Counted from the stretch's first letter, positions 1-63,818 are shown. The stretch: 64,000 nucleotides of DNA from Eledone cirrhosa (GCA_964016885.1 OZ024741.1:322400001-322464000); one strand, 5' to 3'. Numbers and translations: made by a program. Notes: a model not told the origin generated them from the sequence alone.

Positions 1-86
1 CTCTCTCTCTCTCTCTCTCTCTCTCTCTCTATATATATATATATATATATATATATATATATATATATATATATATATATATATAG
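1..86. repeat. (CT)n followed by (AT)n microsatellite; 3' flank of the Penelope-like element
   Basis: Directly visible dinucleotide runs. Confidence 0.98.
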
Positions 87-171
87 TGAAAAATTGAACG
101 GGAACAAAACAGAGAGGCAGTACGAACAAAGGTTTATGAGTTTCACGCTCTTGAGAGTGGGGCGGGGTGGG

Positions 172-206
172 GAACGACGTTTCGGGCATAAGCCCTTCTT
201 CAGGTG
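172..206 (-). ncRNA. Minimal type-I hammerhead ribozyme motif at the PLE 3' end
   Basis: Reverse complement CAC-CTGAAGA-A-GGGC-TTAT-GCCC-GAA-ACGT-C-GT. Core is canonical and stem III is palindromic, but stem I is only ~2 bp. Confidence 0.7.
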
Positions 207-1639
207 AAAAGTGTGTGGGAAGAGAGTTCAAAGGGTGTGTAGGGGAGTGGTGGAGAGACATATAGCAAAAAGTGGGTGAGAGGAAACGGTGCAAATGAAA
301 TTAAAAATAAAGGCATGATCAAAATAAAATTAAAATGGGGTAAAACAGGTGGTGGAAGGGTTTGGGGCGTGTAGGGGTGGTGGCGGGTGGAGTGGGTGGA
401 GGGAGACGGGGTGTCCGAGCGGGGAGGGCTGAAGGTGGTGTGTGTGTGTGTGTGTGTGTATGTGAAAGCAAGGGTTGGGGGAAGAACGGGGTTGCATGTT
501 CAGGAAGATGTGTGTGTGGGGTGGGGTGTAGGTCGGAGTGTGTGTGCGTGTGTGGATAGAGGGTGGGGGAAAGGATTCCGGAGGCTGAATGTGTAAATAT
601 GTGGTGGTACGCACGTGTGTGTGTGGTGTTTATGCGTGTTGTGGATGTAGGTGGCGTGTGGGAAAAAAATTTTTGTTGGGTGTATGTCTGGGGGTGAGTC
701 GTAAAGGTAATTCCGTAAAAGGATGTGGTGGAATGCTGAGTAAAATCCTTGGGATGCGGCAGATTCTCGGGATCAAGGTTCACATATGTGTAATCCGTGA
801 AGAGATTGGTCGGAAGAGGGGAGATGTGGGGTGCGCGCGCAATAGGAAGTGGTCAGAGGGTCAATGCAGGAGGAGGGTTGTGTGTCTGTGTGTGGGGGGA
901 GGTGGTCAGAGAGGCATAGCAGCAGTAGGGTAGAATGGTAAGTGAAGAAAGTCGGTGTGTCAGTGTGTGCAGAGGAGCGGTGGACAGAGGAGAGGATGGG
1001 TAGGTGTGAAAGTTGGAGTGAGGAGGGTGTGTGTATATTAGTAGAGGTGTTAGTGGGATGTGTGTGTGTTTGAGAAAGGGTGTGGGTGGAGCGGGAAGAG
1101 AAGGGTGTGGGGGCCGATGGAGGGAGTGTAGTGTACTGGTGTGTGTGTGGTGAAGGGGGTGTTAGTGTGTGTTAGTATACTGGAGGTGGAGAAAGGGTTG
1201 AATGCGGGTGTGAGTGGGGGTCAGTGGTGGTAGGTGTGTAGAGTGGGTGGTGTAAGAGGGTGTGTGTGTTCGTGTAGTAGGGTTTGGGGGTGTTAGTGAT
1301 GTTAGTTGCGTGTAGAGTGGGTGGTATAAGTGGGTATGTGTGTTCGTGTGCTTGGGGTCAGGGGATGTGTTAGTGATGTTAGTTGCGGGGTGGTGGGGTG
1401 GATGGGTGGGGGTGAGGGTTAGTGGTGGTAGTAGGGTGTGTGTTTAGTGTGAGCGCGTGTATATATGTACCGGTGGGTGTGTGCGTGTGATAAGGAGGGG
1501 GGAGAAGAAGGGAGGGATGTTAGTATGTTAGTTGGGGAAGGGTGGTCGGTTGTGGGGTGGAGGTGTTAGTATTGTTAGTTGTGGGGTGGGTGGTGAAAAG
1601 GAGGGGTGTGTTAGTAGTGTTAGTGGAGTATATGTGTGT

Positions 1640-62659: not shown

Positions 62660-62745
62660 GTATGTATGTATGTACGTATGTATGTATGTATGTATGTATG
62701 TATGTATGTATGTATGTATGTATGTATGTATGTATGTATGTATGT

Positions 62746-63352
62746 AGGTCACCAGTTGGTGCTACTGATAACATGTATCCCAGTACAACATGTCTCATGG
62801 TCGGGTCGTTGGCGACTAAACTGGCAACCCCACCAAGGTTTCTTGGTGAGGAGGGTGACTTTGGACATCCTGCAGGACTAAAAACAAAACCTGTCAAAGG
62901 GCAAAGGAGCTGTTAAAAGTCAATGGCCATCCAAAATCACCGGGAGAGATGACCCCTTAGCCTTTGTCAAGGCAGAATTCTAGGAGAAGGAAAATTCTGA
63001 TATAACACCTGCAACCCTGATGGTATCCAATGATGTTGACTTGTTCTTCTTTTTGGTAAATGTCATCTTGGTTAAGAGAGTGGGACTGGCTTTGTGCAGT
63101 GCCTTTGCTCACTATAAAAGCTTCACGGCACAGGCATTGCTTTATATCTGGAGATCTCTCTGCACTTGTCGTTACATGGTACCATGGGCCCAGCATTATA
63201 TGTCAATAATTGTCACAAGTGTAGTGTTTGTACCAGAGCTTTCAAGTCGCTGGCTGGACTAAAACGTCACACTCGTTCAGCGCATCGGTACGGGTTCTCT
63301 ACATGGATATAAAGTAGTGGCCGTACTCGAAAACGAGTTGGCAGCCACCACC
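62746..63352 (+). mobile_element. Bipartite non-autonomous RTE-type element, copy A3
   Basis: Near-identical to A1 and A2, flanked by (TATG)n. Confidence 0.75.
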
Positions 63353-63416
63353 ATGTATGTATGTATGTATGTATGTATGTATGTATGTATGTATGTATGT
63401 ATGTATGTATGTATGT

Positions 63417-63818
63417 GTCATCTCGAATCGCATACGAGAAAGTAAAGTGGGATGTGAGGAAGAGCATTGCTGTTGCACTTCCAGACGGCGAGGGTCCTCC
63501 TATGGTGCTGACATGCAGCGTCTGTGCGAGACTCTGCCTAAGCAAAGCTGGACTCGAAAGTCATCTTCGCAGTCATAAAGTAAGACCAGTGGTTGACTAC
63601 CAGGCTGCTGTTGGAGATGCTACTCATCATACTTGCCAAGCATGTGGTAGAGAATGTAAATCAGCAGGAGGGCTCAAACGACATGCAAAAGTACATGAAC
63701 TCCAACCTCAGCAGGCTATTCCCATTGAATATTTTGGTTGCCGACTCTGTGCAAGACATTTTAGATCTTTGGCTGGGCTAAAAAGCCACATTCGATCGCA
63801 GCGCTGTTAGTTGCTATC
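63417..63818 (+). mobile_element. 3' coding end of an RTE-like LINE with three tandem C2H2-type zinc fingers
   Basis: CSVCARLCLSKAGLESHLRSH, CQACGRECKSAGGLKRHAKVH, CRLCARHFRSLAGLKSHIRS; begins at (TATG)n; last finger resembles the 3' part of the 610-bp units. Confidence 0.65.

What the first reader, a model, noticed from the sequence alone, without database searches (positions are those of the whole stretch)
1..63818. Retroelement families partition by microsatellite: PLE in (AT)n, Tx1 in (ATT)n, RTE-type and R4-type in (TATG)n/(CATA)n
Seen: PLE/HHR inserts are bounded almost always by (AT)n, the Tx1-type LINEs by (ATT)n, and the RTE-like and most R4/Dong-like pieces by (TATG)n. The repeat is present at 5' junctions too, including truncated ones. 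Known: microsatellite-targeting non-LTR families exist (Tx1-clade Kibi and Koshi; Dong at (TAA)n). Inference: four clades using three nuclease types (GIY-YIG, APE, RLE) each use a repeat niche. Where the 3' tail equals the target, each insertion regenerates its landing pad, producing tandem arrays and microsatellite growth.
Basis: partly seen in the sequence, partly recalled or inferred. Interest (0 to 1): 0.75.

Follow-up and report, generated by a model that had tools for sequence, protein, structure and literature searches.

The report
Retrotransposons divide up microsatellites by strand
Across this animal genome, thousands of copies of four unrelated kinds of jumping gene sit in particular short DNA repeats (AT, ATT, or one strand of CATA/TATG), likely because each one cuts and primes on its own repeat; the repeats are shared between kinds rather than cleanly divided, and repeat targeting is already known for three of the four kinds, though we did not find these particular targets in print.

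Summary
The pattern is real and holds genome-wide, but it is not a clean four-way partition. Tx1-like LINE: 1,679 of 1,730 5' ends follow ATTATTATT in one phase. R4/Dong-like LINE: 25 of 40 truncated 5' junctions lie in (CATA)n, none in (TATG)n. PLE: 427 of 489 3' ends run into (TA)n. The RTE-type short element enters the same tetranucleotide on the opposite strand (9,136 TATG versus 9 CATA of 28,817 3' ends), but it enters (AT)n equally often (8,681), so it shares the PLE niche. A divergent Dong-like family sits antisense in the Tx1 (ATT)n tracts. The RTE 3' 'tail' is a target-site duplication, not an element-encoded repeat; one empty site confirms a 12-bp duplication. Head-to-tail arrays of different Tx1 families fit repeated insertion. 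Microsatellite targeting is published for Tx1 (Kibi, Koshi), Dong ((TAA)n) and PLEs ((TA)n). (ATT)n for Tx1, (CATA)n for R4 and strand-split sharing were not found in our seven paper searches; Repbase was not checked. This scan noted most of these pairings earlier on other DNA of this genome. Verdict: new variants of a known kind. Nuclease specificity is inferred, not shown.

The parts
86..4858 (-). PLE family 1 (RT plus C-terminal GIY-YIG with CX4CX2C linker, frameshifted); HHR-like core at 180-203; (TA)n on both sides
   Evidence: 427 of 489 genomic 3' ends followed by TATATATA
7291..7365 (.). short insert between (AT)n tracts, PLE-like by eye only
   Evidence: no other copy among fetched loci
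7423..9359 (+). 5'-truncated Tx1-like copy (family A), (ATT)n at both ends; first member of a head-to-tail array
9381..13888 (+). Tx1-like family A copy with full 5' end and an internal deletion near 10830; (ATT)n at both ends
13940..19972 (+). Tx1-like family B copy: ORF1 region with CCHC knuckle, open ORF2 (APE-RT-zinc finger); (ATT)n at both ends
   Evidence: 1,679 of 1,730 genomic 5' ends preceded by ATTATTATT
20539..20714 (.). repeat-family fragment in (AT)n, PLE-like, class unverified
22103..22670 (.). repeat-family fragment in (AT)n, PLE-like, class unverified
22944..23499 (.). repeat-family fragment in (AT)n, PLE-like, class unverified
23630..23796 (.). terminal fragment related to PLE family 2, in (AT)n
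27211..27658 (.). inverted-repeat fragment in (AT)n, PLE-like
29672..32661 (-). PLE family 2 (RT, C-terminal GIY-YIG) with an inverted 860-bp duplicate; HHR-like core at 29834-29862; (AT)n on both sides
32954..33082 (.). repeat-family fragment in (AT)n, PLE-like, class unverified
38218..38400 (+). SINE (control family): ends in ATT-like microhomology, mostly dispersed with 15-20 bp duplications; its expanded tails serve as Tx1 pads
41709..41935 (.). PLE-like fragment in (CA)n, the exception to the (AT)n rule
43543..43638 (-). Tx1-like 3' end with (ATT)n tail, no repeat at the 5' junction
44820..47079 (-). truncated Tx1-like copy without (ATT)n at either end
47082..51657 (-). Tx1-like family C copy, 5' end on the (ATT)n tail of the next copy
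51679..57595 (-). near full-length Tx1-like family A copy, (ATT)n at both ends
58405..59105 (+). two RTE 5'-UTR-type pieces in (TATG)n
59540..59856 (-). R4/Dong-like family a, 3' fragment (RLE end), (CATA)n at the 3' end
   Evidence: 2,497 of 3,915 genomic 3' ends followed by ATACATAC, 134 by ATATATAT
59966..61271 (+). two tandem 608-bp non-autonomous RTE-type elements separated by (TATG)n
61286..62658 (-). two R4/Dong-like family b pieces; (CATA)n at the 5' junction (62658) and at the 3' ends
62746..63352 (+). third 608-bp non-autonomous RTE-type element in (TATG)n
63419..64000 (+). 5'-truncated autonomous RTE-type LINE (three C2H2 fingers); 63819-64000 is its own microsatellite-built 3' UTR, which ends just past the window

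Best explanation
Several unrelated retrotransposon families in this genome sit in pre-existing microsatellites in a family- and strand-specific way, likely because each nicks one strand of its repeat and primes reverse transcription there. Tx1-like LINEs read (ATT)n and R4/Dong-like LINEs read (CATA)n. The RTE-type family reads (TATG)n, the other strand of the same tract, and also (AT)n. PLEs use (AT)n. A divergent Dong-like family reads (AAT)n, opposite to Tx1. An insertion splits the tract and, for RTE, duplicates 8-28 bp of it, so both sides remain usable (shown by flanks and one empty site). Later copies of the same or another family then land in these pads and build arrays (inferred). For RTE the simplest rule is a nick at a TpA step whose 3' end (..AT) pairs with the RNA's last AU. 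That rule predicts use of (AT)n and of the TATG orientation but not CATA (inferred). An added ~40-fold preference for TGT^ATGT over (AT)n is unexplained by this rule.
For: Tx1 5' ends: 1,679 of 1,730; 30 of 30 and 30 of 30 loci end in ATTATT; a truncated copy has a 15-bp duplication starting ATTATT (L158). R4: truncation points spread over more than 3 kb, 25 of 40 in (CATA)n, 0 in (TATG)n; family b behaves alike. RTE: 9,136 ATGTATGT, 8,681 ATATATAT, 9 ATACATAC of 28,817 3' ends, against availability 402: 16,922: 382 in 400 kb. 5'/3' class concordance p 1.4e-5 in 45 of 65 classifiable full-length copies. 15 of 15 informative duplications begin AT after T, 11 after TGT. An empty-site joint skips 624 bp with a 12-bp overlap. 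PLE: 427 of 489 3' ends; 17 of 45 truncated 5' junctions. Control SINE: 1 of 16 full 5' ends in random DNA lies in (ATT)n. Arrays: 21 of 60 Tx1 5' ends sit on another Tx1 tail; window neighbours are 86% and 75% alike. Nuclease types: APE, RLE-type (R2 best PDB match), GIY-YIG.
Against: Truncated Tx1 junctions lie in (ATT)n only 6 of 26 times by the 16-nt rule; 17 show no repeat (some are internal deletions or later breaks), so part of the 97% at full-length 5' ends could be an element-carried (ATT)n leader. 26 of 45 PLE and 37 of 71 RTE truncated junctions were 'none' (uncurated; about 14 RTE rows are reference artefacts). PLE enrichment is only 7-fold because (AT)n is 5.6% of the genome. Most junction loci were best-identity hits or lay beside other elements, so they are not a random sample. 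Some arrays are DNA duplications: two Tx1B copies share a unique flank. No empty site was listed for the Tx1 copy tested. No biochemistry was done. Clade names rest on domain architecture, not on a tree with named references.
Confidence: 0.8

Rival explanations
1. Clean niche partition by clade: one repeat per clade, each regenerated by an element-encoded 3' tail.
For: No Tx1 junction in CATA/TATG, no R4 family a junction in ATT or TATG, no PLE junction in ATT/TATG/CATA among classified rows (chi-square p 2e-33).
Against: RTE ends are split evenly between (AT)n and (TATG)n. R4-like sequence at 25-41% identity lies antisense within 100 nt of the (ATT)n tract at 5 of 60 Tx1 5' ends, and its 3' motif follows 14 of 80 Tx1 tails. 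RTE 3' flanks copy the target. Some Tx1 tails are a single ATT (L227, L234, L247).
Confidence: 0.07
2. RNA-guided choice: the nuclease nicks loosely, and read-through transcripts carry the donor's flanking repeat, which pairs with the nicked strand, so a copy's niche is inherited from its source locus.
For: Strand asymmetry matches pairing of RNA 3' ends. The model is published for RTE-related retroposons (PMC6007223, Discussion read). On the tree of 65 RTE copies the 3' class needs 13 changes versus 17 in shuffles (3% reach it).
Against: The 5' class shows no signal (14 vs 14). The tree is star-like (45 of 61 branches open) and several sister pairs are neighbours. The 3' flanks are exact copies of the local target even when it is not a repeat (L125, L141, L357, L361).
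Confidence: 0.25
3. Passive association: elements insert loosely and survive or accumulate in microsatellite-rich, gene-poor DNA, or microsatellites grow next to them after insertion.
For: The genome is very rich in microsatellites (8.4% of sampled positions classed as a repeat). The SINE control is enriched beside ATT in Tx1-centred loci (9 of 47).
Against: The fixed phase at 1,679 of 1,730 Tx1 5' ends, the 1,000:1 strand bias of RTE and the opposite bias of R4 cannot come from survival. In random DNA the SINE is 1 of 16.
Confidence: 0.04

Closest known systems
Kibi (TC)n, Koshi (TTC)n and crocodilian Tx1 families on (TTCC)n/(TTTC)n (PMC4494074 and PMC3812793, passages read)
   Same: Two-ORF APE LINE with the repeat on both sides of copies; family-level microsatellite target.
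   Different: Target here is (ATT)n, in an invertebrate. Three or more families stack head-to-tail and share tracts with an antisense Dong-like family. Relationship to Kibi/Koshi was not tested by a tree.
Dong, DongAg, DongBg and ostracod Dong on (TAA)n; R4 clade (PMC3812793, PMC7998251, passages read)
   Same: RT plus C-terminal CCHC and RLE-type motifs; insertion into a microsatellite with fixed orientation.
   Different: Families a and b use the tetranucleotide (CATA)n; a separate, divergent family in this genome keeps (TAA)n.
Neptune and Naiad PLEs with (TA)n insertion bias (PMC8557442, passages read)
   Same: GIY-YIG with a CX2-5CxxC linker, (TA)n flanks, inverted and tandem structures.
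   Different: Nothing new in target; the endonuclease is C-terminal, so these are not Naiads.
RTE-clade LINEs and bipartite non-autonomous derivatives; octopus RTE-2_OV (PMC6007223 abstract and Discussion; PMC2887409 and PMC5786205 abstracts; PMC9115989 passages)
   Same: APE-RT with C2H2 fingers and a microsatellite-rich 3' UTR (as described for RTE-2_OV); duplication start correlates with the 3' terminal bases; short derivative made of 5' and 3' parts.
   Different: Published RTEs are dispersed with a T-stretch signature or generate repeats as tails. This family inserts into pre-existing (TATG)n/(AT)n with a 1,000:1 strand bias and carries almost no tail.

Membership tests
Tx1 clade LINE | Two ORFs; ORF1 with CCHC knuckle; ORF2 APE + RT + C-terminal zinc finger | tested here: met
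   CX2CX4HX4C in 15025-16254; Exo_endo_phos, RVT_1, zf-RVT; best PDB match L1 ORF2, E 5e-52
Tx1 clade LINE | RT groups with named Tx1 elements rather than L1 | not testable with these tools
   No named references among 33 homologues or 7 clusters; the label is recalled from architecture and lack of poly(A)
Tx1 clade LINE | Target sequence preference | tested here: met
   1,679 of 1,730; truncated 6 of 26
R4/Dong clade | Single ORF, RT followed by CCHC and restriction-like endonuclease, no APE | tested here: met
   979-aa open stretch in L280 with CCHC, RHD and RPD motifs; RVT_1 and weak zf-RVT, no APE; best PDB match R2, E 1.5e-27
R4/Dong clade | RT phylogeny with R4/Dong; N-terminal Myb-like domain | not tested
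   The copy used is 5'-truncated; hits are unnamed
Dong proper | (TAA)n target | tested here: not met
   Families a and b use (CATA)n; a different family is at (AAT)n
RTE clade | One long ORF with APE + RT; 3' UTR with short repeats, no poly(A) | tested here: met
   1,004-1,005 aa open frames in L271 and L272; RVT_1, weak APE hits, C2H2 fingers; 3' UTR
RTE clade | RT phylogeny with named RTE elements | not testable with these tools
   1,721 homologues, none named RTE among 120 shown
Bipartite non-autonomous RTE | 5' and 3' parts of the LINE, no ORF | tested here: met
   608-bp unit matches the LINE 5' UTR at 68-69% and has a similar 3' terminus by inspection
Penelope-like element, Neptune/Nematis type | C-terminal GIY-YIG with CX2-5CxxC linker | tested here: met
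   Motifs in 1657-2778(-) and 30072-30635(-); Pfam GIY-YIG below cut-off
Penelope-like element | Hammerhead ribozyme in the terminal repeat | tested here: inconclusive
   No Rfam hit; core motif in two elements, 3 hits versus 0.5 expected, max 3
Site-specific retrotransposon | Endonuclease cuts the target sequence specifically | not testable with these tools
   Needs in vitro nicking

The most novel reading that the evidence does not exclude
The genome holds a self-feeding retroelement guild in which each microsatellite is split by strand between an APE and an RLE family (ATT: Tx1 versus Dong; TATG/CATA: RTE versus R4), and the RTE LINE ships (TA)n and (ATT)n pads in its own UTRs that PLE and Tx1 families then colonise. 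Retrotransposition would then be a main source of this genome's long microsatellites, and the CATA-specific R4 and TATG-biased RTE would be natural target-switch variants.
Probability: 0.4. Interest if true: 0.7.

Novelty: new variant of a known kind. Interest (0 to 1): 0.5.

Why it matters
It gives young, high-copy families with three nuclease types, and related families with different targets ((CATA)n versus (TAA)n in the R4 group), in one genome. That makes the open question of how non-LTR elements choose and switch microsatellite targets, by nuclease or by RNA pairing, directly testable. It also suggests that many long microsatellites here are retrotransposon products or landing pads, which matters for repeat annotation and marker design.

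Tried and rejected
Rfam scan for hammerheads: only microsatellite-driven miRNA noise. DNA searches with the RTE 5' end and the Tx1B 3' end returned nothing because their words are too common; replaced by exact patterns. A variable-gap pattern double-counted forward matches and was not used. The first HHR scan was too strict. The first R4 5'-boundary method was confounded by repeats and redone against a reference. Tree test for inherited niche: inconclusive. Empty-site search at a full-length Tx1B copy: no such joint among those listed; the three best runs are one sample and may be the source of the assembly, and the others are reduced-representation. Homologue searches gave no clade names. The 59-bp piece at 5868-5926 was considered as an HHR and rejected (no core motif). 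Paper searches found no report of (ATT)n Tx1, (CATA)n R4 or strand-split sharing; Kojima and Fujiwara 2004 and Repbase could not be read, and supplements were not opened, so such targets may be listed there.

Full report
Setting. The window is G000:C2:322,400,001-322,464,000 of a 3.0-Gb animal assembly. It is likely a cephalopod: the best named protein hit of the R4-like element is from Argonauta at 57%. This is an inference, not a test. Random DNA (40 stretches of 10 kb) is rich in microsatellites: by a 16-nt rule 5.6% of positions follow (AT)n, 0.085% (ATT)n on a given strand, 0.29% (TATG)n and 0.29% (CATA)n.

What is in the window. Self-comparison, ORFs and Pfam give two PLEs with GIY-YIG domains, eight smaller PLE-like inserts of unverified class, seven Tx1-like pieces of three families in two head-to-tail arrays, and one 5.6-kb cluster (58250-63818) of RTE-type and R4-like pieces. 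Nine of ten PLE-like inserts have (AT)n on both sides. Tx1 pieces have (ATT)n at 5 of 7 5' and 5 of 7 3' ends. RTE pieces have (TATG)n at 6 of 8 5' junctions. R4 pieces lie on the other strand and read (CATA)n.

Tx1-like families. All 30 family A and all 30 family B loci (best-identity hits, the window's own included) end in ATTATT directly before the first base. Genome-wide, 1,679 of 1,730 exact family B 5' ends are preceded by ATTATTATT; the four exceptions fetched are imperfect ATT tracts. Truncated copies are less clean: 6 of 26 de-duplicated junctions in (ATT)n, 2 in (TTC)n, 1 in (AT)n, 17 none. That is still about 270-fold over background. One has a 15-bp duplication beginning ATTATT (L158). 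Some tails are a single ATT followed by other sequence (L227, L234, L247), so a long tail is not obligatory. The gap between full-length and truncated copies leaves open an (AUU)n leader on full-length RNA. For 20 full-length copies the perfect runs have medians of 30 nt (5') and 47.5 nt (3'), against a length-biased mean of 22 nt for 34 background tracts: growth, or a taste for long tracts. Of 60 5' ends, 21 sit on another Tx1 tail and 8 on a SINE tail. Window neighbours differ by 14-25% and three tandem family B copies elsewhere by 0.5-1.3%, which fits repeated insertion; a fourth pair there shares a unique flank and is a DNA duplication.

R4/Dong-like families. A long copy gives RT, CCHC and RLE-type motifs, with R2 as best solved relative. 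Of 3,915 3' ends, 2,497 continue ATACATAC and 134 ATATATAT. Truncation points are spread over more than 3 kb, and 25 of 40 junctions lie in (CATA)n, 3 in (AT)n, 0 in (TATG)n, 12 none. Family b behaves alike by inspection. After earlier notes of this scan pointed to a (TAA)n Dong, I checked: R4-like sequence at 25-41% identity lies antisense within 100 nt of the tract at 5 of 60 Tx1 5' ends, and downstream of 2 of 27 tails examined; its 3' motif follows 14 of 80 Tx1 tails and faces ATT in 19 of 19 distinct cases. So the R4 group has two niches.

RTE-type families. The autonomous LINE has 1,004-1,005 aa open frames with APE, RT and three C2H2 fingers. Its 3' UTR is built of (GT)n, (TA)n, (ATT/GTT)n and mixed tracts before the true end; window 63819-64000 is this UTR. 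The 608-bp unit shares its 5' UTR at 68-69%. Of 28,817 unit 3' ends, 9,136 continue ATGTATGT, 8,681 ATATATAT and 9 ATACATAC, while these 8-mers occur 402, 16,922 and 382 times in 400 kb. That is about 40-fold preference for TATG over AT per site and 1,000:1 against the CATA orientation, yet half of the microsatellite insertions are in (AT)n. Among 65 full-length copies from 70 position-ordered loci, the 5' flank is TATG 39, AT 16, none 8, other 2, and the 3' class follows the 5' class (12/2/5/26, p 1.4e-5). 63 of 65 3' flanks begin AT; 15 duplications that are not pure repeats are 8-28 bp and all follow a T, 11 follow TGT. At L125 contigs of one sample (depth 600-800, so paralogous copies of a host repeat) and two reads of another show the empty form, skipping 624 bp with a 12-bp overlap. 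The 'tail' is therefore the target, duplicated.

PLEs. 427 of 489 family 1 3' ends run into TATATATA; 17 of 45 truncated 5' junctions of two families are in (AT)n, 2 in (CA)n, 26 none, including internal breaks and short AT runs. This is the weakest enrichment (7-fold) and the best known: (TA)n bias is described for Neptune and Naiad (PMC8557442, passages).

Control. The SINE ends in an ATT-like microhomology, yet only 1 of 16 full 5' ends in random DNA lies in (ATT)n. An ATT end alone does not give the Tx1 pattern.

Mechanism. Shown: family- and strand-specific junctions, duplications, mixed arrays, nesting of Tx1 in RTE UTR tracts (L233, L029) and of PLE behind RTE ends (L097, L138). Inferred: target-primed reverse transcription from a nick on the strand complementary to the element's 3' bases. 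Both APE families fit a cut at a TpA step. For RTE, a TpA nick plus pairing with a terminal AU explains the strand bias and the spill into (AT)n, but not the extra preference for TGT^ATGT. Whether specificity sits in the nuclease or in RNA pairing is open; a tree test for inheritance of the niche was inconclusive.

Comparison and novelty. Microsatellite targeting is published for Tx1 (Kibi, Koshi, crocodilian families; PMC4494074, PMC3812793, passages), Dong ((TAA)n; PMC7998251, passages) and PLEs. RTE links to 3' microsatellites are published (PMC6007223 abstract and Discussion; PMC2887409, PMC13295347 and PMC5786205 abstracts; PMC9115989 passages). Two cephalopod repeat papers list these clades without mention of targets in the passages seen (PMC13282606, PMC8967140). 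Seven searches found no (ATT)n Tx1, (CATA)n R4 or strand-split sharing; Repbase and the 2004 source paper were not available. Clade labels rest on architecture. Earlier notes of this scan report the same pairings on other DNA of this genome; they are not independent support. Verdict: real, new variants of a known kind, with the partition corrected to family-and-strand sharing. Interest 0.5.

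Noticed in passing
window 63819-64000; L251-L278: The autonomous RTE LINE carries (GT)n, (TA)n and (ATT/GTT)n tracts in its 3' UTR and an (ATT)n tract in its 5' region; Tx1 copies sit inside these tracts (L233, L029).
   Followed up: partly
window 38218-38400 and 43709-43897: An abundant SINE ends in ATT-like microhomology with 15-20 bp duplications; it may be mobilised by an ATT-priming LINE, and its expanded tails are Tx1 pads (8 of 60).
   Followed up: partly
L186, L244, L291: A further 5' end (not families A-C) also starts at ATT^GG, suggesting a fourth Tx1-like family in the same niche.
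   Followed up: no
L241, L243: Two truncated Tx1B copies have (TTC)n at the 5' junction and (ATT)n at the 3' end; compound (TTC)n(ATT)n tracts are common upstream of full-length copies.
   Followed up: no
L271:1290-1500: An RTE 5' junction shows a short piece of the element repeated with (TATG)n between, like an aborted and restarted cDNA.
   Followed up: no
window 38562-39380 (-): 272-aa open stretch resembling a DNA transposon-derived gene by eye; no Pfam hit.
   Followed up: no
window 5868-5926 and 21930-21989: A 59-bp repeat end inserted in (AT)n twice; family not identified.
   Followed up: partly
random loci L181-L220: The longest (ATT)n and (TATG)n tracts in random DNA mostly abut these elements.
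   Followed up: partly
window 6517-6855: Degenerate (GTG)n array with a 32-bp higher-order unit.
   Followed up: no
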